Shown here piece after piece: positions 2,984 to 14,952 of a DNA stretch of 32,000 nucleotides. Below the pieces are notes generated by a model. The model searched no databases, was not told the DNA's origin, and worked only from the letters and a program-made list of their open reading frames with translations. Location: contig NZ_CP065936.1 in NCBI RefSeq assembly GCF_003367075.2, positions 1,110,001-1,142,000 of the forward strand. The letters run 5' to 3'. The first letter of the stretch is position 1. Each line of letters starts with the position of its first letter. Position numbers and translations under genes: made by a program. Origin of the DNA: Cylindrospermopsis raciborskii Cr2010 (GTDB taxonomy: Bacteria; Cyanobacteriota; Cyanobacteriia; Cyanobacteriales; Nostocaceae).

Positions 2984-3037
2984 GGTGGAATACAGGAGTA
3001 TGTTTGGATCAATCCGTTGAAAAAGAATTTTGGTGTC

Positions 3038-3061
3038 AGACAGGGAATTCATTCCCTGTCT
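3038..3061. repeat. Perfect palindrome (11-bp arms, EcoRI site at centre) just 3' of the 83-aa minus-strand gene
   Basis: AGACAGGGAAT-TC-ATTCCCTGTCT. No adjacent U-tract on either strand, so it is not a canonical intrinsic terminator. Confidence 0.7.
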
Positions 3062-3113
3062 CACCATTGAGAGCGAAATGCGATCGCCTACCTCTAATTC
3101 ATAGATAAACCGG

Positions 3114-3365
3114 TCAATTAATCAGAATCTGTCTTACCAGAATACTCATGACCTCCCCTGGGTTACTAGTCGGTATCGGATCACTCCAATCAGTTGCATG
3201 GGCATAACCAAGCACATGTAGATAGTGAATCGTACTAATAACTGTCTTTTTCGATCCAATTAACAGGTGCTTTAATGGTTCCCTGCGATCGCTTTCTGGA
3301 ACTACCGTAGGGCCAACTACTCTAGTTTCGTTGACATTGCCAATAAAATTCTTAGTCTGTGTCAT
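3114..3365 (-). CDS. Small hypothetical protein, 83 aa (MTQTKNFIGNV...PGEVMSILVRQILIN)
   Basis: ATG at 3365 is preceded by GAGG about 9 nt upstream. A sigma70-like promoter at 3442-3470 overlaps the TTG start given in the ORF track, which favours the shorter form. No recognisable catalytic motif, and the protein is not hydrophobic. Confidence 0.6.
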   Translation of the reverse strand: MTQTKNFIGNVNETRVVGPTVVPESDRREPLKHLLIGSKKTVISTIHYLHVLGYAHATDWSDPIPTSNPGEVMSILVRQILIN

Positions 3366-3441
3366 AATTTGATTACCTCTGAGAAAGGGGTGTAAGGTGA
3401 TCTGGAATTCTTGGCCGAACCGCCCGATCACCTTACTTTTA

Positions 3442-3470
3442 AGTATAAAACTAATTGAACAGATATGCAA
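3442..3470 (-). promoter_or_regulatory. Sigma70-like promoter for the 83-aa gene
   Basis: The minus strand reads TTGCAT, a 17-nt spacer, then TATACT (-35 at 3470-3465, -10 at 3447-3442). This leaves a leader of about 70 nt to the ATG at 3365. Confidence 0.45.
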
Positions 3471-3583
3471 GGGGTTTATAGAAAATAATTAACAAAATTT
3501 GTAAATCTTTTCGACTTGTCAAGCATAAATGAAAAGTATAGGAATTTCTGACTCACCCCCTGGTATCCCTTCCCTAGTTTTTT

Positions 3584-3614
3584 GTAGGTTCGGTTGATGA
3601 AGGAAACCCAAGCC
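3584..3614 (+). repeat. Degenerate solo copy of the GTAGGTTGG..CCCAAC hairpin
   Basis: GTAGGTTCGGTTGATGAAGGAAACCCAAGCC resembles the array hairpin and the copies at 4138 and 31664. Confidence 0.6.
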
Positions 3615-3704
3615 AGGTTACATTTATATATTTACTATGTTGGTATAGACGTGGTTAAATATAACCCCAAGGATTTTTAGGAAATCCCCTGTTCTGGAAG
3701 TAGC

Positions 3705-3759
3705 AATTAAGTTGGCTGAAAAGACTAATGATCTGGTTATTGGTTTATGTATATGGTAT
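3705..3759 (+). promoter_or_regulatory. Conserved 55-nt block upstream of peptide gene 1 (candidate promoter or operator)
   Basis: AATTAAGTTGGCTGAAAAGACTAATGATCTGGTTATTGGTTTATGTATATGGTAT is 45/55 identical, without gaps, to 4353-4407. It ends 82 nt before the ATG, and the flanks are not conserved. Confidence 0.55.
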
Positions 3760-3840
3760 GAGTTACCAATTAGGAATCTAAGAACCTAATTGCTTGAATC
3801 AGGGTGTGACCGTTCAATTGAGATTAAGGATAGTTTATCT

Positions 3841-4008
3841 ATGAATTTAATCGACAATAACGTGCTATTCACCCAGGTCGTTGATAGAGAATCTGTTAGT
3901 ATCAATGGTGGTGGTCTCTTGGAAATAGTTAATTTGCCTAATGACGTGCTAAATTACTTCCAGAATTTACCATCACAGTTAGAAAATTGGATTCTCGGAT
4001 ATCTTTAA
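3841..4008 (+). CDS. Double-glycine-leader peptide 1 (55 aa), bacteriocin- or pheromone-like precursor
   Basis: Leader MNLIDNNVLFTQVVDRESVSINGG, then core GLLEIVNLPNDVLNYFQNLPSQLENWILGYL. AAGGA sits 10 nt upstream of the ATG. The leader aligns with peptides 2 and 3, and a C39-ABC exporter lies downstream. Confidence 0.8.
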   Translation: MNLIDNNVLFTQVVDRESVSINGGGLLEIVNLPNDVLNYFQNLPSQLENWILGYL

Positions 4009-4020
4009 GTAAAGGTAATT

Positions 4021-4076
4021 GAATTTGGGTTTCAGGTATTGGTGTTTGCGAGAACGCCTACCTGAGACTCAATTTT
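4021..4076 (+). terminator. Imperfect hairpin after peptide gene 1 (possible terminator or attenuator)
   Basis: GAATTTGGGTTTCAGGTA ... TACCTGAGACTCAATTTT. The TCAGGTA/TACCTGA core is perfect, the outer stem needs G-U pairs or mismatches, and a T4 run follows. Confidence 0.35.
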
Positions 4077-4112
4077 ACCTATAAACTCTTTCCTAAGCGT
4101 TCTAGCTAAGTG

Positions 4113-4224
4113 GGTGGAATTAAATATAAGATGAACGTAGGTTGGGTTGAAGTATGAAACCCAACACCCGCATGGGTTACGCTACCGCTAACCCATCCTA
4201 CAAATAATTGTGCCTCCCTACTTA
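4113..4224 (+). mobile_element. MITE-like ~112-bp element containing the GTAGGTTGGGTT..AACCCAAC hairpin (copy A)
   Basis: GGTGGAATTAAATATAAGATGAACGTAGGTTGGGTTGAAGTATGAAACCCAACACCCGCATGGG...CATCCTACAAATAATTGTGCCTCCCTACTTA. A reverse-complement copy sits at 31620-31714 with a ~17-bp internal deletion. No transposase is present. Confidence 0.7.
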
Positions 4225-4268
4225 AAGCTATAAATTAGATTGCCAACCTCAAGTTTTTAAAAATAAGG

Positions 4269-4302
4269 TCCCCAATTTCTTCATGGAAGTTGGGGATTTT
4301 TT
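4269..4302 (+). terminator. Rho-independent terminator
   Basis: Stem TCCCCAA (4269-4275) pairs with TTGGGGA (4290-4296), followed by T6. Confidence 0.7.
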
Positions 4303-4352
4303 GTGAGGAAGGGGGGATGTATTTTTGAGAAGTTGTTTTTCCTCAAGTTGGT

Positions 4353-4407
4353 AATTAGGTTGGTTGGAAATATCAATGATCTGGCTATTGGTTTCTGGAT
4401 ATTGTAT
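4353..4407 (+). promoter_or_regulatory. Conserved 55-nt block upstream of peptide gene 2 (second copy)
   Basis: AATTAGGTTGGTTGGAAATATCAATGATCTGGCTATTGGTTTCTGGATATTGTAT is 45/55 identical to 3705-3759 and ends 90 nt before the ATG at 4497. Confidence 0.55.
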
Positions 4408-4496
4408 TAACAAGCAAGCAGTTGAGGGACTTACAAAGAAGCAATCAACTTCTAGCTTAAAACAAATCTAATCACAAGATCAAGGAGTATTGTATC

Positions 4497-4685
4497 ATGC
4501 AAGTAATCGAAAAGAACTCATTATTCGCTCAAGTTTCTGGTGAACAGTCTGCTGTTGTTAGTGGTGGTGCTGTTGGAGAGTTTTATGATGCCGCTGCATA
4601 CGCCATAGTAGCAGCTTTTCTTGGTGTTGATCCTGATCTTATTAAGTTCCAAGCAGTTAACATCTTGTTTGGTCCTCTGGTGTAA
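4497..4685 (+). CDS. Double-glycine-leader peptide 2 (62 aa)
   Basis: Leader MQVIEKNSLFAQVSGEQSAVVSGG, then core AVGEFYDAAAYAIVAAFLGVDPDLIKFQAVNILFGPLV. There is a strong AAGGAG Shine-Dalgarno sequence 8 nt upstream. Confidence 0.85.
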   Translation: MQVIEKNSLFAQVSGEQSAVVSGGAVGEFYDAAAYAIVAAFLGVDPDLIKFQAVNILFGPLV

Positions 4686-4768
4686 GATATCTAATAAGTC
4701 ATATCAATCACATAATGTGTCATTCTTTCTCAAGTAAACATATTTATTGTTGACTGGGATACACACAT

Positions 4769-4837
4769 TAGACCTCTCCGAAATTGAAGCTCAAATCCCC
4801 CATAAACTGGTGGAAATAGAGTTTTAGGAGAGGTCTA
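4769..4837. repeat. Perfect 11-bp inverted repeat separated by 47 nt
   Basis: TAGACCTCTCC (4769-4779) pairs with GGAGAGGTCTA (4827-4837). It lies between peptide genes 2 and 3. Confidence 0.8.
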
Positions 4838-4865
4838 TTCATTGAATTATGGAGAAATAAATTAC

Positions 4866-5093
4866 ATGGCACAAAATAATTTATTTACTGAAATATCAGA
4901 AGAAGAATCTGCAACTATTAAAGGTGGTGGATTCCTTGAAGCTGCTGCATATCTCATAGTAATGCAATCACTATTTCCTTTTATTGCGTATAGTCCAGAG
5001 GTAATAAATACAGCGCTTTTATTTCTTACTGGTGTGCTATCGTTCCCTCAAAATAATAATACAAACCCAAGCAACCTCTCAAAAGATAATTAG
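4866..5093 (+). CDS. Double-glycine-leader peptide 3 (75 aa)
   Basis: Leader MAQNNLFTEISEEESATIKGG, then core GFLEAAAYLIVMQSLFPFIAYSPEVINTALLFLTGVLSFPQNNNTNPSNLSKDN. GGAG sits 11 nt upstream of the ATG at 4866. The in-frame TTG at 4842 from the track is a less likely start by leader alignment. Confidence 0.8.
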   Translation: MAQNNLFTEISEEESATIKGGGFLEAAAYLIVMQSLFPFIAYSPEVINTALLFLTGVLSFPQNNNTNPSNLSKDN

Positions 5094-5216
5094 AGATAAT
5101 TAGAGATAATTAGAAAATTGGAAGGATAGGTCTTTCCCACATTAAGATTTAAAGCTGATTCAATATCAAAAAACAATGGGATTAGACCCCACAAACATGA
5201 TATACATTCAATAACT

Positions 5217-7367
5217 ATGAAATACCCCCATATTTCCCAACACAGTGAAGAAGACTGTGGCGCTGCTTGCTTAGCGGCGATCGCCAAATATTATGGCAAA
5301 AATTTCACTATCACTCGCATCCGAGAATCCGTGGGTACAAGCCAATTCGGTACCACCTTATTAGGTCTACAAAGAGGAGCTAAAACCTTGGGTTTTAAAG
5401 CTTCAACAGTCAGAACTTCACCAGAAATTCTCAAAAGATTAAACGAAGCACCCCTACCAGCAATCATTCATTGGCACGGAAATCACTGGGTGGTTTTTTA
5501 TGGTAAAAAGGGTGAAAAGTATATAATCTCTGACCCAGGAGCAGGGGTACGTTACCTCTGTGAAGAAGACTTTATAGAGGGTTGGAATGATTGGTTAATG
5601 CTATTGCTAGAACCCAGTCCAGAAGAGTTTTTAAAAACAGAAGAAGATAAAATAGGTGGCTTTTGGCGTTTCTTTAAACAGGTGTGGAGTTTTCGGGGAA
5701 TTCTCGCCCAAGCTCTACCGCTCAATTTATTATTAGGACTGCTATCTCTAGCTTCCCCCTTTTTATTACAAATTCTTACTGATGATGTGCTAGTACGGGG
5801 TGATACTAAATTACTCACAACTATGGTTATTGCTGTGGTTGTGATGAATCTTATTTCCAGTAGTCTATCTTGGGTGCAATCTAATTTAATCGCCCATTTT
5901 GCCCAACGTCTCCAATTGGGACTGGTGATGGAATTTGGTAGACAAATTTTGCACTTACCCCTGTCTTATTACGAAGCTCGTCGCAGTGGGGAAATTACTA
6001 GTCGTCTCCAAGATATTAAGCAAATCAATCAGTTGGTTACTCAAGTAGTTGTCAGTTTACCTAGCAAATTTTTTATTGCTCTGATTTCTCTTGGTCTGAT
6101 GGCTTTTTATAGCTGGAAGTTAACTTTGGTGGCTATGGTAATTGCTGGGGTTATGACTATTACTCCTTTGGTGTTTCAACCTAAATTACAGCAAAAAACC
6201 CGGGAACTACTGGTTAAAGATGCGGAAACTCAGGGTGTATTGGTGGAAACTTTTAAGGGTGCTCTAACTCTCAAAACTACTACTGCTGGTAATCAATTCC
6301 TAGAAGAGTTCCAAGTTCGATTTGGCAAGTTGGCTAATTTAACTTTGGACACTATGCAAATTGGTATTATTAATAATACCTTTTCTGGCTTTATCTCCTC
6401 TATTGGTAGTATTATCCTCCTCTGGTTTGGTGGTCATTTAGTGATTAATCCCAGTGAAAATCTCAGTATTGGTCAATTACTGGCTTTTAATTCGATGAAT
6501 GCTAATTTCCTGGGTCTCATAACTACTGTTATCAGTTTTGTCCAGGAATTTACCCGCGCTAAAACAGCAGTGCAAAGACTGACGGAAGTGATAGATACCA
6601 CTCCAGAAAGTGACTATGATGGTAAAAAGCCTTTTGCTAAAATCGCTGATGATGCTAAAATCACTTGCACTAATATCAACTTTCATTATGCTGGGAGACT
6701 TGACTTATTAGAAGACTTTTCTTTAACTATTCCCGGTGGTCAAGTCGTGGCTTTAATCGGTAAGTCAGGATGTGGTAAAAGTACCTTGGCTAAATTAATC
6801 GCTGGGTTATATACCATCCAATCTGGAAATATTCGCATTGGACTCTATAACCAACAAGATTTGTCTTTAGAATCTTTACGTCAACAGGTGATTCTAGTTC
6901 CCCAGGAACCCCATTTCTGGAGTCGTTCTATTGTGGAAAACTTTCGGTTGGGCGCACCTCACGTTAGTTTTGAGCAGATTGTCCGAGCTTGTGAAATTGC
7001 TGGTGCTGATGAATTTGTCAGTAAATTACCCGCAAAATATCAAACTATATTGGGTGAATTTGGTGCTAATATTTCCGGTGGTCAAAGACAACGATTAGCT
7101 ATAGCTAGGGCTATTGTTACAGATCCACCAATTCTAATTTTGGATGAGTCTACCGGGGGACTAGACCCGGTCAGTGAAGCACAGGTTTTAGATCAGTTAT
7201 TTGAACATCGTCAAGGAAAAACTACTATTTTAATCACCCATCGTCCCCAGGTAATCAATCGTGCTGATTGGGTCATTATGTTGGATGGAGGAAAACTCCA
7301 ATCCCAAGGATCTTTAGAAGAATTGAAATTCAGACGAGGGGAACACCAAGACTTTATTCTGCTTTAA
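5217..7367 (+). CDS. Peptidase-C39-domain ABC transporter (PCAT), a double-glycine peptide processing exporter
   Basis: The N-terminus has QHSEEDCGAACL (catalytic Cys), GNHWVVF (His) and ISDPG (Asp). It is followed by a 6-TM ABC membrane domain, Walker A GKSGCGKST, signature ISGGQRQR and Walker B ILILDEST. Confidence 0.93.
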   Translation: MKYPHISQHSEEDCGAACLAAIAKYYGKNFTITRIRESVGTSQFGTTLLGLQRGAKTLGFKASTVRTSPEILKRLNEAPLPAIIHWHGNHWVVFYGKKGEKYIISDPGAGVRYLCEEDFIEGWNDWLMLLLEPSPEEFLKTEEDKIGGFWRFFKQVWSFRGILAQALPLNLLLGLLSLASPFLLQILTDDVLVRGDTKLLTTMVIAVVVMNLISSSLSWVQSNLIAHFAQRLQLGLVMEFGRQILHLPLSYYEARRSGEITSRLQDIKQINQLVTQVVVSLPSKFFIALISLGLMAFYSWKLTLVAMVIAGVMTITPLVFQPKLQQKTRELLVKDAETQGVLVETFKGALTLKTTTAGNQFLEEFQVRFGKLANLTLDTMQIGIINNTFSGFISSIGSIILLWFGGHLVINPSENLSIGQLLAFNSMNANFLGLITTVISFVQEFTRAKTAVQRLTEVIDTTPESDYDGKKPFAKIADDAKITCTNINFHYAGRLDLLEDFSLTIPGGQVVALIGKSGCGKSTLAKLIAGLYTIQSGNIRIGLYNQQDLSLESLRQQVILVPQEPHFWSRSIVENFRLGAPHVSFEQIVRACEIAGADEFVSKLPAKYQTILGEFGANISGGQRQRLAIARAIVTDPPILILDESTGGLDPVSEAQVLDQLFEHRQGKTTILITHRPQVINRADWVIMLDGGKLQSQGSLEELKFRRGEHQDFILL

Positions 7368-7408
7368 CTTAATCCCTACCCAATTACCCTTCACCCCATC
7401 TACCCAGT

Positions 7409-8809
7409 ATGTTTTATACTCATCGACCTAAACTCATATCTTCTGTGGATAATCCCCAGTTCCTCCCTCCTGTTAGTCGTTGGACTTCTTTAGCAGGAAT
7501 ATTCCTAATTGGTACTGTTACTAGTGCTATTGCTCTTGCTTCTTGGGTGAAATATAACGTCACGGTAAAAGTGGATGCTGTGGTTCGTCCTATAGGGGAA
7601 GTTCGTGTAGTTCAACCGGAAGTAGAGGGAACTATTAAAAGTATTTTGGTCAAACCAAATCAAACGGTGAAAATAGGTGATGTAATTGCCTATTTAAATA
7701 CGGATGATTTGCTTATCAAAAAAAGTCAGTTACAAGGTAATATCCAACAGGGTAATTTACAAATATCGCAAGTTTATGCCCAAATTCGTATTTTAGATCG
7801 GCAAATTTTGGCTGAAACTCAAGTTGCTCAAAATGCTATTACTTCCGCAAGGGTGGATTTGTTACGTAATCAAAGGGAATATCAAGAACAGCAGGTTAGC
7901 ACCCAGGGTGAATTTTTAGCCGCTCAAGCTAATTGGCAAAAGGCTAAAGCTTCTTTAGATAAAGCTCGAGCAGATCTGAGTTTTGCCAAAATGGATAAGG
8001 AACGCTATCAGGAACTCTCCCAAATTGGAGCTGTGGGTAGACGGGAATTGGAGCAAAAAGCTTTGACTGTTCAGCAAACACAGTCAATCCTGGATACTGA
8101 AAGGAAATCTCTGGAAATGGCTAAAATTAAGGTTCAGTCAGCTCAAGTTGCTATTAATCCAACCCCAGCAGCAGTGATGATAGCACAGGAACGTATCGCT
8201 CAAGAAACTGCTAGGGGTGTGTCTAATATTGCTAGTCTCAATAAGGAAAAACAAGCTTTAATTGAGCGTCGAGTTCAATTAGAAACTCAGATTAAACAAT
8301 CTATTAAGGAATTAGAGCAGGTAGAAAATCAGATGCGTAAAAGTATGATTTTAGCTACGAGTAATGGTATTATTCTCAAACTCAATTTACGCAATCCGGG
8401 ACAGGTGATCCGTCCCAGTGAATCTATAGCGGAAATTGTACCTGATAGTTCGGATCTGTTAATTAGAGCTTTAATTCCTACTGAGGAAATTCAAAAGGTC
8501 AATATAGGTCAACAAGTTCAGTTACGGGTTGGTGCTTGTCCCTATCCTGATTATGGAACACTCCAGGGAGTGGTTCAAACTATTTCTCCTGATGTGATTA
8601 CCAATCAATCTAATAATCAAGGAACGACTAATAGGATGGGGAATGGTTATTTTGAAGCTACGGTTAAACCAGCAAGTTTACAATTTGGTCATGGTCGACA
8701 TCAATGTTATCTCCAATCGGGAATGGAGGTGAAAGCTGATATTATTTCTAAACAGGAAACTGCTCTGGAATTTATGTTCAGGAAAGCAAGGTTAATTACT
8801 GATTTGTAA
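7409..8809 (+). CDS. HlyD-family secretion or membrane-fusion protein
   Basis: It has an N-terminal TM segment (LAGIFLIGTVTSAIALASW), a lipoyl-like barrel (VQPEVEGTIKSILVKPNQTVKIGDVIAYL) and a long Q/A/E-rich coiled coil. It sits immediately after the PCAT. Confidence 0.9.
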   Translation: MFYTHRPKLISSVDNPQFLPPVSRWTSLAGIFLIGTVTSAIALASWVKYNVTVKVDAVVRPIGEVRVVQPEVEGTIKSILVKPNQTVKIGDVIAYLNTDDLLIKKSQLQGNIQQGNLQISQVYAQIRILDRQILAETQVAQNAITSARVDLLRNQREYQEQQVSTQGEFLAAQANWQKAKASLDKARADLSFAKMDKERYQELSQIGAVGRRELEQKALTVQQTQSILDTERKSLEMAKIKVQSAQVAINPTPAAVMIAQERIAQETARGVSNIASLNKEKQALIERRVQLETQIKQSIKELEQVENQMRKSMILATSNGIILKLNLRNPGQVIRPSESIAEIVPDSSDLLIRALIPTEEIQKVNIGQQVQLRVGACPYPDYGTLQGVVQTISPDVITNQSNNQGTTNRMGNGYFEATVKPASLQFGHGRHQCYLQSGMEVKADIISKQETALEFMFRKARLITDL

Positions 8810-8859
8810 TTTTTGTCAGGTAGGTAATGGACAATAGACTAGAAAAATGGGTGTAGCTC

Positions 8860-9624
8860 ATGGGTCTCAAAAAGGTCAAACTAGCATTAAATTGGTTGTT
8901 CTATAAACAATCTATAAAGTTATATGGGGAATCGGAAAAAATTCGAGATGATCTGTTGCAGGAGTCTTTTACTATCCGTCGCGGTTTGGAAGCATTGAAA
9001 ATTCAACATTGTGATTTATTAAATAACCAAGTAATAGGTTATCCATCCCCAGGTTTTTATCCTATAAATTCTCAATTACTAACTGATTATTTGCCATATA
9101 ATGAATCACTAGACCAATCAACTAACCAATCATTCAATACTTCAATTTCTGAACATATCAACAGGGTAGAAAACTTTCATCACTCCCTGGTTGAGTTAAG
9201 CGATCGCCTGTTTCCAATTTATATTGAAGAGAGTCTACCTTTATCCATTCAGTGTTTGGTAGATTCTTGTTTTCTTGCTCATCCTCACATATCAGTTGAT
9301 TTTGACATGCCTAGTTCTTGGAGGAAGGAGTCAGCACAATTTAGTCTGCTGACTTTAAGAACTCTTCAGGAATTAATGTCTATAACTGTACCAACTTTTT
9401 CCGATCCTCTGTCAATTTATATAAATTTGAAAGACCGGAAAAATATTCGGGAATTAACTCTGGAAATTATTTATCCCGATATTTCTACTTTGTTATTTTA
9501 TTCTGGGTTACCGGAATTAAAATATCTCAGTAGTAGCTGGGAATTTTTAATTTCTGGTAAATGTTTTTATCATATAGTCAATTACAAAGGTAACTACAAA
9601 ATAGCCTGGTTTTTTTGCTGGTGA
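8860..9624 (+). CDS. Hypothetical 254-aa protein, a possible degenerate HisKA_3-type histidine-kinase-like protein lacking the phospho-His and ATP-binding boxes
   Basis: ESEKIRDDLLQESFTIRRGLEAL aligns by eye to the H-box of the downstream kinase (EIIFETIHNGPLQTLDRILRIL), with Arg at the His position. The C-terminal half (LRTLQELMSITVP ... LTLEIIYPD) parallels the N-box and G1 regions but lacks the Asn and DxGxG. No TM segment is present. The assignment rests on manual alignment only. Confidence 0.4.
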   Translation: MGLKKVKLALNWLFYKQSIKLYGESEKIRDDLLQESFTIRRGLEALKIQHCDLLNNQVIGYPSPGFYPINSQLLTDYLPYNESLDQSTNQSFNTSISEHINRVENFHHSLVELSDRLFPIYIEESLPLSIQCLVDSCFLAHPHISVDFDMPSSWRKESAQFSLLTLRTLQELMSITVPTFSDPLSIYINLKDRKNIRELTLEIIYPDISTLLFYSGLPELKYLSSSWEFLISGKCFYHIVNYKGNYKIAWFFCW

Positions 9625-9804
9625 ATTGAGGTAAATCCAGATAAATTAACAGAATCAAAATTCAGATCTTAGCTTTCTGACTAGCAGAATAGGTTCTAAA
9701 TCTTTCTCCACAGTTCAGGAATTTTTCCCATGAGGGGTCAAATACCTCATCCCCAACTAAACAGAATCCATACAATTTATTAGGTAAAGGTTCACCATTT
9801 CTTA

Positions 9805-10524
9805 ATGTTGAGAATGCAACATCAAATGCAACATTTATCACCTAATCAGTTAACTGACTCATCCACTAATAAACTGCTGAAGATCTTAGTTATTGATGAC
9901 CACGAATCGGTTCTCAACGGGACGATTTACATTTTGCAAAAAAACTATCCCAGTGCTGAATTTATAACTGCAACGGATGTGCAAACAACTGTGGAACAGG
10001 TAACTAATAGACAACCAGATCTCATAGTTATGGATCTTTCCATACCTGAGAAACAGGGAATGACTGCTCGCACTGATAATGGTATTCAACTACTAAAGAC
10101 CTTGATGAAACAACATCCCCATCTGAATATTGTTGTTCAAAGTGCCCACAGCAAAACCCTAGTGCGAATTCGGTTAGATATTGAGAGTCATCAAGGAGGT
10201 TTTACCATTGCTAATAAAAGTGTTTCTATTCAGGATATGTTGACCAGGGTTGATTGGGCATTACAAGGACTAACTCATACTAAGGATATTAAGGGAATTA
10301 ACTCGGGAACGGAGGTAAAACCAGAGTGGTTAAAAGTTTTATATTTAGCTTTTGAACGGGGATTACAAGATAAAGCCATTGCTCAAGAAATGTGTGTGTC
10401 TGAACGAATGGTACGTCATTATTGGAATAAGTTACAAGATGCTCTCAATGTCTATCCAGAAGTCGGTAAAAATATTCGTATTCAAACGGAGAAACAAGCT
10501 AGGGAGGAAGGACTGATTGATTAG
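9805..10524 (+). CDS. Response regulator, NarL/LuxR family (REC plus HTH)
   Basis: The REC domain has VIDDH, the phospho-acceptor in LIVMDLSIP, VVQSAH and ANK. The C-terminal LuxR-type HTH reads LQDKAIAQEMCVSERMVRHYWNKLQDAL. Confidence 0.88.
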   Translation: MLRMQHQMQHLSPNQLTDSSTNKLLKILVIDDHESVLNGTIYILQKNYPSAEFITATDVQTTVEQVTNRQPDLIVMDLSIPEKQGMTARTDNGIQLLKTLMKQHPHLNIVVQSAHSKTLVRIRLDIESHQGGFTIANKSVSIQDMLTRVDWALQGLTHTKDIKGINSGTEVKPEWLKVLYLAFERGLQDKAIAQEMCVSERMVRHYWNKLQDALNVYPEVGKNIRIQTEKQAREEGLID

Positions 10525-10577
10525 TCGATAACAGGAAGTGGGGAAGAAAAAACCGACTATGATCAAGGGCTAAAATT

Positions 10578-11522
10578 ATGCAGTCTAAACCTTGGAAAAA
10601 GATTAGGGCATTTTTACCAATCAATCATTTATCAAACTATATATCTAACATTTACCAAAAACAGATTCTCAGTTATTTGGCAATTTTTAATTTACTGAGT
10701 ATTACTTATCTAATAGTAAATTGGCATTATTTAAACTCTCCTGTTTTGGCAGTTTATATTATTATTGCCAATCTTCTGGAATTGATAATACTACAGCACA
10801 AAGATAAAAACCTAAAATCAGAAGTTAAATCCAGACAAACAATCATTGAGATTATTTTTGAAACCATCCATAATGGTCCCCTACAAACCCTAGATAGAAT
10901 TTTAAGAATACTCAATCAAGTCAATCAGCAAGAATTCTCCCCACATACATTAATGAAAACCACAATTCCAGAATTAACCACAGAACTGGAAAAATTAAAC
11001 CAAGAACTCAGAGGAATCTATGAATTTTGGCACCGAGAAACTATCTCTCCACACGCTAACCTCTACCTAGATAAAAATCTAGTCATTAATTTAGAAGCTC
11101 CCCTACCAGAAATCCTCTATCAGGTCTATACCCATACCCTAGAACGAAATTTCTCCTGTTTTCAAACTATCAAATTAAAAGTCCGCAGTTTTGACCCACT
11201 GGATGAAACTGGGTTAACCCTGGAACATAAACGGGGAATTTGTCGTTTCTTGGAAGAATCACTATGTAATGTGGGTAAATATGCAAATGGAGTAACCTGT
11301 CTTCAAGTTACTGGTCTCTCATCTATGGGTTGGTACACACTTAGTATTGTCGATGATGGTTTAGGTGTGAACTCATGTAAAGAAGGAGAGGGGACAAAGC
11401 AGTTCAAATATTTAGCTCAACAAATTCAAGGTAAATTTCAGAGAATTCCCCAACATCCCCAAGGAACTATTTGTGAATTATCCTGGCCCACAAGTTCTGT
11501 GGTTGGGAGTCATCAAACTTAG
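10578..11522 (+). CDS. Sensor histidine kinase, HisKA_3 type, with two TM helices and no sensory loop
   Basis: TM1 is ILSYLAIFNLLSITYLIVNW and TM2 is SPVLAVYIIIANLLELIIL, separated by about 4 residues. It has H-box ETIHNGPLQTL, N-box EESLCNVGKYA, G1 VDDGLGV and G2-like GEGTKQ. Confidence 0.8.
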   Translation: MQSKPWKKIRAFLPINHLSNYISNIYQKQILSYLAIFNLLSITYLIVNWHYLNSPVLAVYIIIANLLELIILQHKDKNLKSEVKSRQTIIEIIFETIHNGPLQTLDRILRILNQVNQQEFSPHTLMKTTIPELTTELEKLNQELRGIYEFWHRETISPHANLYLDKNLVINLEAPLPEILYQVYTHTLERNFSCFQTIKLKVRSFDPLDETGLTLEHKRGICRFLEESLCNVGKYANGVTCLQVTGLSSMGWYTLSIVDDGLGVNSCKEGEGTKQFKYLAQQIQGKFQRIPQHPQGTICELSWPTSSVVGSHQT

Positions 11523-11584
11523 CTATATTGAGAATATAATAGCTGAGTGTAGAACTTTGACTCAAAGGAAGGCTAAAAAACACT

Positions 11585-12541
11585 GTGCAGATCACATTTT
11601 TAGGGACAAGTTCTGGTGTACCCACAAGATCACGTAATGTTTCCAGTGTCGCGCTGAGACTACCTCAACGCGCAGAACTCTGGTTATTTGACTGTGGTGA
11701 AGGTACACAACATCAAATTTTGCGCAGTGACCTGAAAATTAGTCAACTGTCACGCATTTTTATCACCCATCTCCATGGTGACCACATTTTTGGCTTGATG
11801 GGACTTTTAGCTAGTTGTGGTTTAGCTGGTAATGTGGAACGGGTTGATATCTATGGACCTGCTGGATTAAATGAGTACCTGCAAGGTGCTTCACGTTATT
11901 CCCACACCCATTTTTCCTATCCTATCAAAGTCCATACTGTTCAACCTGGTGTGATTTACGAAGATGAGGAATTTACTGTCACTTGTGGAATGCTCCATCA
12001 CCGCATTACTGCTTTTGGTTATCGTGTAATGGAAAAAAACAGATATGGGCGGTTTGATGTGGAACAAGCCAAAGCCCTACAAATACCTTCTGGACCAATT
12101 TATGGAAAACTTAAACGGGGGGAAACTGTCAAATTGGAAGATGGTCGAATCATTAATGGTAAGGAATTATGTGGTCCAACGGAAATTGGACGTAAGTTTG
12201 CCTATTGTACAGATACTGTTTATTGTGATGGTGCGGTTAAATTAGCTGAGGATGCGGATGTATTAATTCATGAAGCTACTTTTGCCCATCAAGATGCGGA
12301 AATGGCTTTCCAAAGACTACATTCTACCAGTACAATGGCAGCACAAACAGCTTATGTGGCTGGAGTAAATCAACTGATTATGACCCATTTTAGTCCCAGA
12401 TATACTCCGGGAAATGACATTGAGTTGAAAGATTTACTTAAAGAAGCTCGTGCAATTTTTCCTAATACCATCATGGCTCATGATTTTATGGTTTATGACA
12501 TACCCAGAAGAAGGGAAAAGGGATCTGGGGATCCTGATTAA
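11585..12541 (+). CDS. rnz: Ribonuclease Z (tRNA 3' endonuclease)
   Basis: [26 protein letters not shown], metallo-beta-lactamase motif HLHGDH, 318 aa, GTG start. Confidence 0.92.
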
Positions 12542-13914: not shown

Positions 13915-14952
13915 ATGAATTACTGTTTCAATCCCCACTGTGATCAACCCGCAAACCCAGAAGGTGTTAATTGTTGCCTAAATTGTGGTGCCAATCTACT
14001 TCTAAAAGAGCGCTATCGCTCAATTAAACTCATTGGACAAGGAGGATTTGGTAGAACCTTTTTAGCAGTGGATGAGGATAAACCTTCAAAACCATTTTGC
14101 GTAATTAAACAATTCTATACTCAATCATCAGGCAAGGACACACTCCAAAAAGCAATACAATTGTTCAATCAGGAGGCTATTCGCTTAGATGAACTAGGTA
14201 CCCATCCTCAAATCCCAGAACTGTTGGCTTATTGCACTCAGGAGGATCGACAATATTTAGTTCAGGAATTTATTAACGGGTTGAATTTAGCACAGGAACT
14301 GGTGCAAAATGGTGCATTTACAGAAGACAAAATTCGACAATTACTCATTGATTTATTACCGGTTTTGCAATTTTGCCATCACCACCAGGTAATTCATCGA
14401 GATATTAAACCGGAAAATATTATTCGTCGCACTAGTGATAACAAACTAGTTATAGTTGATTTTGGAGCAGCAAAATCAACCACAGAAGAAACCAGAAATC
14501 GTACAGGAACGAGCATTGGCACTCCTGAATATGTGGCACCAGAACAAATGCGCGGAAAAGCAATATTTGCCAGCGACATTTATGGACTGGGCGTGACCTG
14601 TATTAACCTGTTAACCAGGCGATCGCCTTTTGACTGTTATTATAGTCATGAAGCTACATGGATATGGAGAAAGTTTTTAAAAACCCCCATAACTGATGAT
14701 TTAGGGCAAATAATAGATAAAATGATAGCCATCATTCCCAGTCAACGCTATCAAACCGTTACAGATGTAATAGAAGATTTAAAATTACAGTCTATTTCAA
14801 CACCCAGCTCTATTTCTATCAAAAATACTGTCAATATTCCCACCACTATAATTAGTCCACCAAAACCACCCACATCCAATCAACCCCATATTCCAGATGT
14901 CATAGATCAAGAACTAGCAGAAATAAAATCTAAGTTCCTAGATAATGGTTAA
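13915..14952 (+). CDS. Ser/Thr protein kinase with N-terminal 4-Cys zinc-ribbon prefix
   Basis: CFNPHCDQPANPEGVNCCLNCG prefix, then GQGGFGRTF (G-loop), VIK, HRDIKPEN, DFG and GTPEYVAPE. Confidence 0.9.
   Translation: MNYCFNPHCDQPANPEGVNCCLNCGANLLLKERYRSIKLIGQGGFGRTFLAVDEDKPSKPFCVIKQFYTQSSGKDTLQKAIQLFNQEAIRLDELGTHPQIPELLAYCTQEDRQYLVQEFINGLNLAQELVQNGAFTEDKIRQLLIDLLPVLQFCHHHQVIHRDIKPENIIRRTSDNKLVIVDFGAAKSTTEETRNRTGTSIGTPEYVAPEQMRGKAIFASDIYGLGVTCINLLTRRSPFDCYYSHEATWIWRKFLKTPITDDLGQIIDKMIAIIPSQRYQTVTDVIEDLKLQSISTPSSISIKNTVNIPTTIISPPKPPTSNQPHIPDVIDQELAEIKSKFLDNG

What the first reader, a model, noticed from the sequence alone, without database searches (positions are those of the whole stretch)
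8860..11522. Peptide-export operon continues directly into a pseudo-kinase, NarL-type regulator and loop-less HisKA_3 kinase, a candidate undescribed peptide-responsive circuit
All genes from 3841 to 11522 are on one strand. The gaps are short after HlyD: 50 nt to the 254-aa ORF, then 180 nt and 53 nt.

The 254-aa protein aligns by eye to the dimerisation and H-box region of the downstream kinase but has Arg where the phospho-accepting His sits (KIRDDLLQ versus TIHNGPLQ). It also lacks the N-box Asn and the G1 DxGxG, and has no TM segment. That pattern would fit a soluble pseudo-histidine-kinase.

The bona fide kinase has two TM helices separated by about 4 residues. This is the intramembrane-sensing architecture that in Firmicutes (BceS/LiaS type) senses through a partner transporter or membrane perturbation rather than through a periplasmic domain.

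Gram-positive class II bacteriocin and competence loci combine a GG-peptide, a PCAT, a kinase and a regulator. Those use AgrC/HPK10-type kinases and LytTR regulators. A HisKA_3/NarL version with an extra pseudo-kinase in a cyanobacterium is not something I know to be described. Functional linkage is inferred from position only.
Basis: inference. Interest (0 to 1): 0.7.

Follow-up and report, generated by a model that had tools for sequence, protein, structure and literature searches.

The report
Pseudo-kinase, regulator and sensor-less kinase
Three adjacent genes encode a sensor kinase that has lost its outside sensor, its DNA-binding partner, and an unnamed kinase look-alike that cannot phosphorylate itself but keeps the motif kinases use to switch their partner off; the trio is widespread in cyanobacteria and, in the heterocyst-forming order, always sits just behind a peptide-export operon.

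Summary
ORFs lie at 8860-9624 (X, 254 aa), 9805-10524 (regulator) and 10578-11522 (kinase), all on the + strand, with gaps of 50, 180 and 53 nt.

X matches no Pfam or NCBIfam model. Its AlphaFold model has a histidine-kinase fold: the top 50 PDB matches are all histidine kinases. In 288 relatives the His position is Arg in 256 and the N-box Asn position is always hydrophobic. The adjacent DxxxQ phosphatase motif is kept, with Gln34 invariant.

The kinase is genuine (His98, Asn231, DxGxG; profile matches VraS and DosT). It is not a BceS/LiaS-type sensor. It is a reduced form of a CHASE2 kinase: 56 of 78 orthologous loci encode a roughly 627-aa CHASE2 protein.

In Nostocales, X always follows PCAT-HlyD (79 of 79 loci) and always precedes the regulator and kinase (73 of 73). 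Outside Nostocales the trio occurs without any peptide exporter (0 of 19 loci), usually with DUF928, CHAT and two-partner-secretion genes.

So this is an undescribed three-component signalling module, secondarily joined to the peptide operon. Peptide sensing is unproven and unlikely in this sensor-less copy. My working model is that X is a kinase-dead phosphatase or modulator of the regulator.

The parts
8860..9624 (+). X: a 254-aa soluble histidine pseudokinase. It has a DHp-like helical hairpin (helices 2-58 and 86-117) and a CA-like alpha/beta domain (126-253). Arg29 sits at the His position. The D30-x-x-x-Q34 motif is retained. A roughly 38-aa disordered, lineage-specific insertion lies in the hairpin loop (about 59-85).
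   Evidence: No Pfam, NCBIfam or PDB sequence hit. AF2 model pLDDT 76, with the CA-like domain near 90. Foldseek against PDB gives 164 hits at E<=1e-3, and the top 50 are all histidine kinases. Family residue statistics are. dN/dS is 0.17. The family has 244 clusters at 50% identity.
9805..10524 (+). Response regulator: a receiver domain (acidic pair D31/D32, predicted phospho-acceptor D77) plus a C-terminal LuxR/GerE-like helix-turn-helix. The true start is possibly about 20 codons downstream.
   Evidence: Response_reg E=5e-13 and GerE E=0.076. Full-length alignment to EvgA E=7e-4; receiver similarity to DevR and DesR. Present next to X in 73 of 73 Nostocales loci and 17 of 19 outgroup loci. 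The Asp positions were read from the sequence.
10578..11522 (+). Sensor-less histidine kinase. It has two TM helices (about 29-48 and 52-74) with a loop of about 4 residues. The H-box is IHNGPLQ (His98, Asn99, Gln103). The N-box has Asn231, G1 is D259-G261-G263 and G2 is G272-T273. It is a CHASE2-less derivative of a CHASE2 kinase family.
   Evidence: Invariant and near-invariant motif residues. Family profile against PDB: VraS E=6e-4, DosT E=8e-3. HATPase_c in 31 of 34 family members. AF2 model pLDDT 79. Foldseek: DesK many times, VraS CA domain TM 0.76 at 2.8 A. Long CHASE2 orthologues in 56 of 78 loci. No CHASE2 hit in the window.
7409..8809 (+). HlyD-family adaptor of the peptide exporter. 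It is the upstream neighbour, invariably linked to X in Nostocales.
   Evidence: HlyD_3 E=1e-16 and TIGR01843 E=3e-43. Upstream of X in 79 of 79 loci.
5217..7367 (+). Peptidase-C39 ABC exporter (PCAT).
   Evidence: Peptidase_C39, ABC_membrane and ABC_tran domains. 73-96% identical orthologues sit at the same position in all Nostocales loci.
3841..4008 (+). GG-leader peptide gene 1 (MNLIDNNVLFTQVVDRESVSINGG|G...).
   Evidence: Read from the sequence. Below the CTB family cut-off.
4497..4685 (+). GG-leader peptide gene 2 (MQVIEKNSLFAQVSGEQSAVVSGG|A...).
4866..5093 (+). GG-leader peptide gene 3 (MAQNNLFTEISEEESATIKGG|G...). Its leader weakly resembles the CTB family.
   Evidence: NF038167 E=0.039 over the leader only, below cut-off.
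3671..3755 (+). Conserved bipartite upstream element, copy 1. Box 1 is at 3671-3685 and box 2 at 3702-3716, 31 nt start to start. Both resemble TTT-N3-GAAAT. They are followed by a -35-like AATGAT (3727-3732), a 17-nt spacer and a -10-like TATATG (3750-3755). This is a candidate activator-dependent promoter of the peptide genes.
   Evidence: k-mer enrichment: the best 9-mer occurs in 52 of 74 upstream regions against 6 of 70 controls. Fixed spacing across genomes. Alignment. The promoter reading is my inference.
4319..4407 (+). Conserved bipartite upstream element, copy 2 (box 1 at 4319-4333, box 2 at 4350-4364), upstream of peptide gene 2.

Best explanation
Window 8860-11522 encodes a three-component phosphorelay that is conserved across filamentous cyanobacteria.

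Shown:
1. The 314-aa protein is a real membrane histidine kinase of the DesK/VraS (HisKA_3-like) class. It has lost the extracellular CHASE2 sensor that most of its orthologues carry.
2. The 239-aa protein is its receiver-plus-HTH response regulator.
3. The 254-aa protein X has a DHp-plus-CA histidine-kinase fold. It lacks the phospho-accepting His (Arg29) and the ATP-binding N and G1 boxes, so it cannot autophosphorylate.
4. X, the regulator and the kinase travel together in every lineage sampled. In Nostocales they always sit directly behind a GG-peptide/PCAT/HlyD export operon. Elsewhere they sit with DUF928, CHAT and two-partner-secretion genes.

Inferred:
5. The kinase phosphorylates the regulator on Asp77.
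6. X docks on the same regulator through its most conserved surface, ExExIRDxLLQExFxxRR. It uses the retained Asp30-x-x-x-Gln34 motif to dephosphorylate the regulator, or at least to bind and sequester it. In HisKA_3 kinases this motif carries phosphatase activity and does not need the His. X would then be a natural kinase-minus, phosphatase-plus paralogue that resets the pathway.
7. In Nostocales the regulator's likely target is the conserved two-box, activator-type promoter in front of the GG-peptide genes. The trio would then tune peptide export.

This window has the most reduced version: X has no membrane anchor, the kinase has no CHASE2, and there is no DUF928 or CHAT. Input must therefore come through the two TM helices or through X, not from an extracellular peptide-binding domain.

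The confidence of 0.5 is for the whole chain. Steps 1-4 alone I put at about 0.85, step 6 (phosphatase) at about 0.35 and step 7 (target) at about 0.45.
For: Kinase: His98, Asn231, D259/G261/G263 and G272/T273 are invariant or nearly so. Profile hits to VraS and DosT. HATPase_c in 31 of 34 relatives. The model matches DesK, VraS and BceS.

X fold: with 164 PDB hits at E<=1e-3 and the top 50 all histidine kinases, including DesK and the pseudokinase DivL.

X motifs in 288 relatives: the His position is R 256, Q 11, H 7. The N-box position is I, L or V. Gln34 is present in 279 of 279. Asp30 is D 193, N 52, E 28.

A few relatives keep His in a motif almost identical to the kinase's: P0266 has ERIHNGIMQ against ETIHNGPLQ. 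The end-to-end alignment is collinear.

Literature: DxxxQ is required for HisKA_3 phosphatase activity (PMC3510030). The His is nonessential for the NarX phosphatase, and DesK Gln193 positions the catalytic water (PMC5231405).

Purifying selection on all three genes.

Linkage: 79 of 79 and 73 of 73 in Nostocales; regulator in 17 of 19 and kinase in 16 of 19 outgroup loci. In L086 a regulator fragment and a frameshifted kinase remain where the peptide genes, PCAT, HlyD and X have been lost.

Promoter element: with a box pair in 65 of 72 loci.
Against: - Sequence homology between X and kinases is not statistically established. hhalign gives probability <=1.4%, global P=0.015 and local E=0.09. 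One of 43 members hits HisKA_3, at E=0.011. The profile finds nothing in PDB. Equating Arg29 with the His, and D30/Q34 with DxxxQ, therefore rests on fold plus a marginal alignment.
- No phosphatase, binding or expression data exist.
- The box element is never found upstream of X or the regulator. It could not be detected near the trio in outgroups. Nothing ties the regulator to it except adjacency.
- The trio exists without peptide genes outside Nostocales, so the linkage in Nostocales could be inherited synteny.
- The kinase keeps Gln103, in an NxxxQ motif, and may be a competent phosphatase itself.
Confidence: 0.5

Rival explanations
1. Peptide auto-induction circuit. The exported GG peptides are sensed by the kinase, the regulator activates the peptide and export operon, and X modulates the loop, as in Gram-positive bacteriocin or competence quorum sensing.
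For: Strict adjacency of peptides, PCAT, HlyD, X, regulator and kinase in Nostocales. Most orthologous kinases carry an extracellular CHASE2 domain that could bind an exported product. There is an activator-type conserved promoter element before the peptide genes. A module remnant decays once the peptide genes are lost.
Against: In this window the kinase has no extracellular domain, with a loop of about 4 residues. The trio is found without any PCAT, HlyD or GG peptide in 19 of 19 outgroup loci. The cargo peptides here have diverged out of the CTB family while the trio is conserved. No CHASE2 ligand is known and none was tested.
Confidence: 0.2
2. X is a non-catalytic modulator, not a phosphatase. 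It heterodimerises with the kinase's DHp, as RetS does with GacS, or it reads the regulator's phosphorylation state and feeds back on the kinase, as DivL does with DivK and CckA.
For: X has the same fold and similar helix lengths to the kinase's DHp. DivL and RetS are among its structural matches. The ancestral X is anchored in the same membrane as the kinase. Both proteins share the I-(H/R)-(N/D)-x-x-L-Q and L/R-R pattern on helix 1.
Against: The 100% invariance of Gln34, and the Asp/Asn/Glu at position 30, are more than a dimerisation surface needs. No heterodimer model could be computed with the tools available.
Confidence: 0.25
3. Neighbours by descent only. The trio controls other genes, such as cell-surface or secretion functions like the DUF928, CHAT and TPS genes it accompanies elsewhere. 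Its position behind the PCAT operon in Nostocales would be a frozen accident.
For: Outgroup loci: 0 of 19 with PCAT or HlyD, 11 with DUF928, 8 with CHAT and 10 with TPS. In Nostocales, DUF928 is present only where CHASE2 is present: 36 loci with both and 0 of 17 without CHASE2. The gap between HlyD and X is 360-445 nt in the other Nostocales loci examined, leaving room for its own promoter. The box element is absent upstream of X.
Against: The block stays intact in 73 of 73 loci although its flanks differ. It also survives loss of DUF928, CHAT and CHASE2. In this lineage the gap has shrunk to 50 nt with no terminator.
Confidence: 0.3
4. Bce-like flux sensing. The loop-less kinase reads the activity of the neighbouring PCAT/HlyD exporter through membrane contacts.
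For: A two-TM, loop-less architecture. BceS is among the structural matches (8g3a_D). The kinase gene is adjacent to a transporter.
Against: The loop-less state is derived and in the minority: 22 of 78 loci, with CHASE2 ancestral. The transporter is an exporter of the PCAT type, not BceAB-like. The regulator is not OmpR-type as in Bce systems.
Confidence: 0.07

Closest known systems
DivL of Caulobacter crescentus (histidine pseudokinase; PMC4211667, PMC5361649)
   Same: A DHp-CA fold in which the phospho-accepting His is replaced. It acts by binding a response regulator and modulating a genuine kinase. DivL (4q20) is among X's structural matches.
   Different: DivL is a large multi-PAS membrane protein of the HisKA class, with Tyr at the His position, and it is not encoded with its partners. 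X is a minimal 200-260-aa protein, always encoded immediately upstream of its regulator and kinase. It has Arg at the His position and keeps the HisKA_3-type DxxxQ motif.
HisKA_3 kinases in phosphatase mode (NarX, DesK)
   Same: A DxxxQ motif one helical turn after the His position. The Gln positions the hydrolytic water, and the His is dispensable for NarX phosphatase activity (PMC3510030, PMC5231405). X has D30-x-x-x-Q34, with Gln invariant.
   Different: NarX and DesK are bifunctional and keep the His and the ATP-binding site. X has neither. X does not match the HisKA_3 Pfam model.
LiaFSR / VraTSR three-component systems of Firmicutes (from my own knowledge)
   Same: An accessory-protein gene, a loop-less HisKA_3-class kinase and a NarL-type regulator in one gene cluster. 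VraS is the kinase's best PDB sequence and domain match.
   Different: LiaF and VraT are membrane proteins of an unrelated fold. Those kinases are loop-less by family, whereas this one descends from CHASE2 kinases. Those systems sense cell-envelope damage.
Gram-positive GG-peptide circuits (ComCDE, BlpRH, PlnABCD; from my own knowledge)
   Same: GG-leader peptides, a C39 ABC exporter and a two-component system in one locus.
   Different: Those use HPK10/AgrC-type polytopic kinases and LytTR regulators, and the regulators are integral to the peptide locus. Here the kinase is HisKA_3-like, the regulator is LuxR/GerE-like, there is an extra pseudokinase, and the trio exists independently of peptide genes.
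CHASE2 sensor kinases with DUF928 and CHAT neighbours in cyanobacteria
   Same: The window kinase belongs to this family by sequence: 38-56% identity to CHASE2-bearing relatives. The ancestral locus is X, regulator, CHASE2 kinase, DUF928 and CHAT.
   Different: The window copy has lost CHASE2, DUF928 and CHAT, and X has lost its anchor. No function or ligand for these CHASE2 kinases turned up in the literature I could search.
EbfG/PteB small secreted proteins of Synechococcus elongatus, and the asr5139-alr5148 cluster of Anabaena PCC 7120 (PMC4997328, PMC12267927)
   Same: GG-motif peptides, then a PCAT, then HlyD. The Anabaena cluster is the probable orthologue of window 3841-8809, since rnz (alr5152) lies three genes after alr5148.
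   Different: Those papers do not describe the three regulatory genes. No paper in the library mentions alr5149-alr5151. A role for the peptides in biofilm rather than as bacteriocins is open.

Membership tests
Histidine kinase, HisKA_3/HATPase_c class (314-aa protein) | Conserved phospho-accepting His in the first DHp helix | tested here: met
   His98 is invariant in 34 family members, within IHNGPLQ.
Histidine kinase, HisKA_3/HATPase_c class (314-aa protein) | N-box Asn, G1 DxGxG and G2 of the ATP-binding domain | tested here: met
   Asn231, D259/G261/G263 and G272/T273 are nearly invariant. HATPase_c matches 31 of 34 relatives, though not the window protein itself.
Histidine kinase, HisKA_3/HATPase_c class (314-aa protein) | Match to the Pfam HisKA_3 model (PF07730) | tested here: not met
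   No hit at E<=1 for the window protein. HisKA_3 is not among the families listed for the 34 relatives. The class is inferred from profile matches to VraS, DosT and DevS, fold matches to DesK and VraS, and the H-x-x-x-x-Q spacing.
Histidine kinase, HisKA_3/HATPase_c class (314-aa protein) | DxxxQ phosphatase motif next to the His | tested here: inconclusive
   The kinase has H98-N99-G-P-L-Q103. The Gln is kept, and the Asp is replaced by a nearly invariant Asn.
Intramembrane-sensing kinases (BceS/LiaS type) | Two TM helices with a minimal extracellular loop | tested here: met
   TM segments at about 29-48 and 52-74 with a loop of about 4 residues.
Intramembrane-sensing kinases (BceS/LiaS type) | Descent within a loop-less kinase family, with a BceAB-type transporter or LiaF-type partner | tested here: not met
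   The closest relatives are CHASE2 kinases; 56 of 78 orthologous loci are long forms. The neighbouring transporter is a PCAT with C39 peptidase. X is not LiaF-like.
Histidine pseudokinase (254-aa protein X) | DHp helical hairpin plus a CA-like alpha/beta domain | tested here: met
Histidine pseudokinase (254-aa protein X) | Loss of the phospho-accepting His and of the ATP-binding residues | tested here: met
   Across 288 members the aligned His position is R 256, Q 11, H 7. The aligned N-box position is I, L or V and never Asn. G1 is not conserved. The alignment to the kinase is collinear but statistically marginal.
Histidine pseudokinase (254-aa protein X) | Statistically significant sequence homology to histidine kinases | tested here: not met
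   BLASTP finds nothing. hhalign gives probability <=1.4%. Pfam gives one HisKA_3 hit among 43 members, at E=0.011. PDB profile searches are empty.
NarL/FixJ-type response regulator (239-aa protein) | Receiver domain with an acidic pocket and a phospho-acceptor Asp | tested here: met
   Response_reg E=5e-13. D31/D32 and D77 were read from the sequence.
NarL/FixJ-type response regulator (239-aa protein) | C-terminal LuxR/GerE helix-turn-helix | tested here: inconclusive
   GerE E=0.076, below cut-off. The full-length alignment to EvgA has E=7e-4. Orthologues carry 'weak' GerE hits.
GG-peptide quorum-sensing/bacteriocin regulatory loci (Com/Blp/Pln type) | GG-leader peptides plus a C39 ABC exporter in the locus | tested here: met
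   Three GG-leader ORFs, a PCAT and HlyD.
GG-peptide quorum-sensing/bacteriocin regulatory loci (Com/Blp/Pln type) | HPK10/AgrC-type kinase and LytTR regulator | tested here: not met
   The kinase is VraS/DesK-like with 2 TM helices, and the regulator is REC plus a LuxR-like HTH.
GG-peptide quorum-sensing/bacteriocin regulatory loci (Com/Blp/Pln type) | The regulators co-occur with the peptide and exporter genes wherever they are found | tested here: not met
   True in Nostocales (79 of 79 and 73 of 73). False elsewhere: 0 of 19 loci have PCAT or HlyD.
GG-peptide quorum-sensing/bacteriocin regulatory loci (Com/Blp/Pln type) | The peptide induces its own operon through the kinase | not testable with these tools
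   This needs peptide addition and mutant transcriptomics.
CTB family bacteriocins (NF038167), for the window's three peptides | Score above the family cut-off (32 bits) | tested here: not met
   The best is 14.1 bits (E=0.039), over the leader of peptide 3 only. Peptides at the same position in Anabaena and Desmonostoc score 46-89 bits.

The most novel reading that the evidence does not exclude
The trio is a secretion-feedback circuit with a naturally split kinase and phosphatase. The (CHASE2-)kinase only phosphorylates. The pseudokinase X is the dedicated DxxxQ phosphatase that resets the regulator. In the full-length relatives, the CHASE2 domain senses the locus's own secreted product: GG peptides in Nostocales, two-partner-secretion exoproteins elsewhere. 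That would give CHASE2 its first ligand class, as far as I know.
Probability: 0.15. Interest if true: 0.8.

Novelty: new variant of a known kind. Interest (0 to 1): 0.55.

Why it matters
- Histidine pseudokinases are rare and known from a few large, idiosyncratic proteins such as DivL and PsmA. X is a compact, widespread family: 244 clusters at 50% identity, with no match in Pfam or NCBIfam. It is always encoded with its kinase and regulator. That makes it an unusually clean system for asking what a kinase-dead DHp-CA protein does.
- X keeps the DxxxQ phosphatase motif, which gives a sharp, cheap biochemical test.
- The same module links CHASE2 sensor kinases, whose ligands are unknown to my knowledge, to defined secreted products encoded next door. 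That offers candidate ligands to test.
- For cyanobacterial biology, it supplies the first candidate regulators and a conserved promoter element for the GG-peptide/PCAT operon. That operon is present across heterocyst-forming cyanobacteria, including bloom-forming Raphidiopsis/Cylindrospermopsis.
- The window's own copy is the most reduced version, so the most informative experiments would use CHASE2-bearing relatives.

Tried and rejected
Led nowhere:
- BLASTP of X against the kinase.
- phmmer and profile searches of X against PDB sequences.
- Pfam and NCBIfam scans of X and of 43 relatives.
- hhalign of the X family against the kinase family: collinear but not significant.
- An Rfam scan of 3000-12000 found nothing.
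- The promoter and terminator scan was uninformative, with fewer promoter-like sites than in shuffles and no terminator in the gaps.
- The search for the TTT-N3-GAAAT box near the trio in outgroup loci stayed at chance level.
- The first metagenome scan failed because the profile was too diverse. It was repeated with a narrower one.
- The local Pfam copy lacks the CTB model, since the positive controls failed. NCBIfam was used instead.

Considered and rejected:
- X as a decaying gene or chance ORF: dN/dS is 0.17 and the family is large.
- X as a fragment of the CHASE2 or kinase gene: it is a separate conserved gene in every locus.
- The regulatory genes belonging with rnz: rnz lies within 10 kb in only 36 of 71 loci.
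- BceS/LiaS-type membership of the kinase.
- His107, a conserved His on helix 2 of X, as an alternative phospho-acceptor. It is Tyr, Gln or Asn in a third of members. It also lies only about 68 residues before the N-box-equivalent position, which from my own knowledge of typical His-to-N-box distances is too close.

Full report
**What is there.**

The window carries the following on the + strand:
- three short ORFs with double-glycine leaders (3841-4008, 4497-4685, 4866-5093);
- a C39-peptidase ABC exporter, the PCAT (5217-7367);
- a HlyD adaptor (7409-8809);
- a 254-aa ORF, X (8860-9624);
- a 239-aa response regulator (9805-10524);
- a 314-aa protein (10578-11522);
- RNase Z (11585-12541).

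The gaps after HlyD are 50, 180 and 53 nt, as stated. Close homologues at 89-97% identity come from Cylindrospermopsis raciborskii and Raphidiopsis. All six genes are under purifying selection against R. brookii D9. dN/dS is 0.17 for X, 0.16 for the regulator, 0.29 for the kinase, 0.07 for the PCAT, 0.15 for HlyD and 0.04 for rnz.

**The kinase.**

On its own the 314-aa protein matches no Pfam or NCBIfam model. Its family settles the question.
- An alignment of 34 relatives has invariant His98 in IHNGPLQ. Asn231, D259/G261/G263 and G272/T273 are nearly invariant.
- The family profile hits the ATP-binding domains of VraS (E=6e-4) and DosT (E=8e-3).
- 31 of 34 relatives match HATPase_c.
- The AlphaFold model (pLDDT 79) matches only histidine kinases. 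DesK appears many times, and the VraS catalytic domain fits at TM 0.76 and 2.8 A.
- It has two TM segments, at about 29-48 and 52-74, with a loop of about 4 residues.

The Pfam HisKA_3 model is not matched, so that class label is an inference.

Many relatives carry an N-terminal CHASE2 domain. Among 78 orthologous loci, 56 encode a CHASE2 kinase of roughly 627 aa and 22 encode a short form. The window has no CHASE2 remnant. The loop-less architecture is therefore a secondary loss of an extracellular sensor. It is not a BceS/LiaS-type design.

**The regulator.**

It has a clear receiver domain (E=5e-13), with D31/D32 and D77. Its C-terminal HTH is only weakly GerE-like (E=0.076). It aligns over its full length with EvgA (E=7e-4) and over the receiver with DevR and DesR. 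The C-terminal 70 residues are almost identical in distant cyanobacteria.

**X.**

- No sequence method recognises it.
- Its family is large: 244 clusters at 50% identity, all stand-alone proteins of about 200-270 aa.
- The AlphaFold model is a long helical hairpin followed by a confident alpha/beta domain, with overall pLDDT 76 and about 90 in the alpha/beta domain.
- Foldseek against PDB returns 164 hits at E<=1e-3. The top 50 are all DHp-CA histidine kinases, including HK853, AgrC, DesK, RetS and the pseudokinase DivL.
- hhalign against the kinase family gives an end-to-end collinear alignment that pairs Arg29 with His98 and Ile175 with Asn231. It is statistically marginal, with global P=0.015.
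- Across 288 members the His-equivalent position is Arg in 256, Gln in 11 and His in 7. The Asn-equivalent position is always hydrophobic.
- The rare His-bearing members read ERIHNGIMQ, close to the kinase's ETIHNGPLQ.

X is thus a histidine-kinase look-alike that can neither bind ATP in the usual way nor be phosphorylated on His.

**A mechanistic clue.**

The most conserved part of X is ExExIRDxLLQExFxxRR on helix 1. Gln34 is present in 279 of 279 members, and position 30 is Asp, Asn or Glu. This is the DxxxQ motif that sits next to the His in HisKA_3 kinases.
- It is required for NarX phosphatase activity (PMC3510030).
- The equivalent DesK Gln193 positions the hydrolytic water.
- The His is dispensable for the NarX phosphatase reaction (PMC5231405).

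The cognate kinase has NxxxQ instead. I therefore propose that X is a natural kinase-minus, phosphatase-plus paralogue that dephosphorylates the regulator, or at least sequesters it. This step is inferred, not shown.

**Genomic context in Nostocales.**

I examined 84 loci in total: 80 species-representative genomes and 4 further loci.
- Every locus with enough sequence has PCAT and HlyD upstream of X on the same strand (79 of 79).
- Every locus with enough sequence has the regulator and kinase downstream (73 of 73).
- rnz lies within 10 kb in only 36 of 71.
- The flanks differ between genera.
- In one metagenome contig with the usual flanking genes, only a regulator fragment and a frameshifted kinase remain.

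**Genomic context outside Nostocales.**

The sample was 19 X-containing loci, from Symploca, Leptolyngbya, Pseudanabaenales and metagenomes.

| Feature near X | Loci (of 19) |
|---|---|
| PCAT or HlyD | 0 |
| Regulator | 17 |
| Kinase | 16 (the other three contigs are too short) |
| DUF928 | 11 |
| CHAT | 8 |
| Two-partner-secretion exoprotein | 10 |
| ShlB-type transporter | 4 |

The trio is therefore an independent module. Its ancestral neighbourhood is X, regulator, CHASE2 kinase, DUF928 and CHAT, next to two-partner-secretion genes. In Nostocales it has become fixed behind a different secretion locus.

**A reduction series.**

Most relatives of X have an N-terminal TM helix before the ALQWW motif. 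The 73 Nostocales loci with at least 7 kb downstream divide as follows.

| X TM anchor | CHASE2 | DUF928 | Loci |
|---|---|---|---|
| yes | yes | yes | 34 |
| no | yes | no | 14 |
| no | no | no | 14 (includes this window) |
| yes | yes | no | 6 |
| yes | no | no | 3 |
| no | yes | yes | 2 |

DUF928 never occurs without CHASE2 (0 of 17). These counts are not phylogenetically independent. The window holds the minimal version, yet its genes remain under selection.

**Possible target.**

A bipartite element precedes the first GG-peptide gene in 65 of 72 loci. Box 1 is TGTATTTTTCGGAAAT and box 2 is TGGTAATTAAGTTTGCAGAAAT, and both contain TTT-N3-GAAAT. They are followed by a -35-like AATGAC, a spacer of 17-18 nt, a -10-like TATxxT and a conserved leader.
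- The start-to-start box spacing is 53-54 nt in 55 loci.
- It is 31 nt in 10 loci. All 10 are CHASE2-less, and this window is one of them.
- The window carries two copies, at 3671/3702 and 4319/4350.

This looks like an activator-dependent promoter, and the adjacent regulator is the obvious candidate. However, the element is absent upstream of X and the regulator. A test in outgroups was uninformative.

**Literature.**

- No paper in the searchable library combines CHASE2 with cyanobacterial bacteriocins.
- The genome-mining study of cyanobacterial bacteriocin clusters does not mention two-component regulators (PMC3140520).
- The probable Anabaena PCC 7120 orthologue of the export operon is asr5139-alr5148 (PMC12267927), and rnz is alr5152 (PMC10989914).
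- The three genes in between are not mentioned anywhere.
- Known histidine pseudokinases such as DivL and PsmA are large and unrelated in architecture.

**Verdict.**

The pseudo-kinase reading is supported at fold level and sharpened by the retained phosphatase motif. The BceS/LiaS analogy and the 'peptide-responsive' label are not supported for this copy. The trio is an independent, previously undescribed three-component module that is tightly but secondarily coupled to the peptide-export operon in Nostocales.

Noticed in passing
window 3671-3755 and 4319-4407; L001-L085 upstream of the first peptide gene: A conserved bipartite element (box 1 TGTATTTTTCGGAAAT, box 2 TGGTAATTAAGTTTGCAGAAAT) with a fixed spacing of 53-54 nt in most Nostocales. 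The spacing is 31 nt, two helical turns less, only in CHASE2-less loci. -35/-10-like hexamers and a conserved 5' leader follow. It matches no Rfam family.
   Followed up: partly
window 3841-4008, 4497-4685, 4866-5093: The three GG-leader peptides fall below the CTB-family cut-off, and only the leader of the third is weakly similar. Peptides at the same position in Anabaena and Desmonostoc are clear CTB members. The cargo has turned over while the exporter and regulators are conserved.
   Followed up: partly
window about 9034-9114 (X residues about 59-85): A roughly 38-aa Asn/Ser/Gln/Pro-rich insertion in the hairpin loop of X. It is found only in the Cylindrospermopsis/Raphidiopsis sequences and is predicted disordered (pLDDT below 50).
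   Followed up: partly
window 3584-3611 and 4137-4164: Two copies of a short dispersed repeat (GTAGGTTGGGTTGAAGTATGAAACCCAA-like) with an internal inverted repeat. It is probably one of the small interspersed repeats common in Nostocales genomes. ORFs around 2650-2934 seem to read through similar repeats.
   Followed up: no
window about 4270-4305: A GC-rich hairpin followed by a T-run (CCCCAATTTCTTCATGGAAGTTGGGGATTTTTT) between peptide gene 1 and the second copy of the upstream element. It looks like an intrinsic terminator that the simple scan missed, and it suggests the peptide genes are separate transcription units.
   Followed up: no
L026, L037, L046, L052, L053, L077 (Nostoc spp.): In six Nostoc loci the kinase gene lies on the opposite strand, convergent with the regulator gene. 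In three of them it is a 239-aa remnant. The kinase gene is thus rearranged or decaying while X and the regulator are kept.
   Followed up: no
L086:9709-11868: A metagenome contig with the usual flanking genes (CobU, glycosyltransferases). Only the last 95 residues of the regulator and a frameshifted CHASE2 kinase remain, followed by DUF928 and CHAT. This looks like a deletion that removed the peptide genes, PCAT, HlyD and X.
   Followed up: partly
L089:11604-11810, L091:11596-11802, L093: A conserved 68-aa hydrophobic protein is encoded between the CHASE2 kinase and DUF928 in several outgroup loci. It is unannotated and absent from the window.
   Followed up: no
L089, L091-L093, L095-L099, L104, L106: Outside Nostocales the X-regulator-CHASE2 kinase-DUF928-CHAT block sits next to large TPS-domain exoproteins and ShlB/POTRA transporters (two-partner secretion). 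In both settings the trio neighbours a secretion system together with its cargo.
   Followed up: partly
L006 (Raphidiopsis brookii D9), HlyD region: The HlyD match begins only at query residue 104, although the PCAT and X flank it normally. This may be a frameshift, truncation or assembly gap in that genome's adaptor gene.
   Followed up: no
window 13915-14952: A Ser/Thr protein kinase ORF with an N-terminal Cys-rich (zinc-ribbon-like) segment lies a few genes downstream, on the + strand. It seems unrelated to the finding.
   Followed up: no
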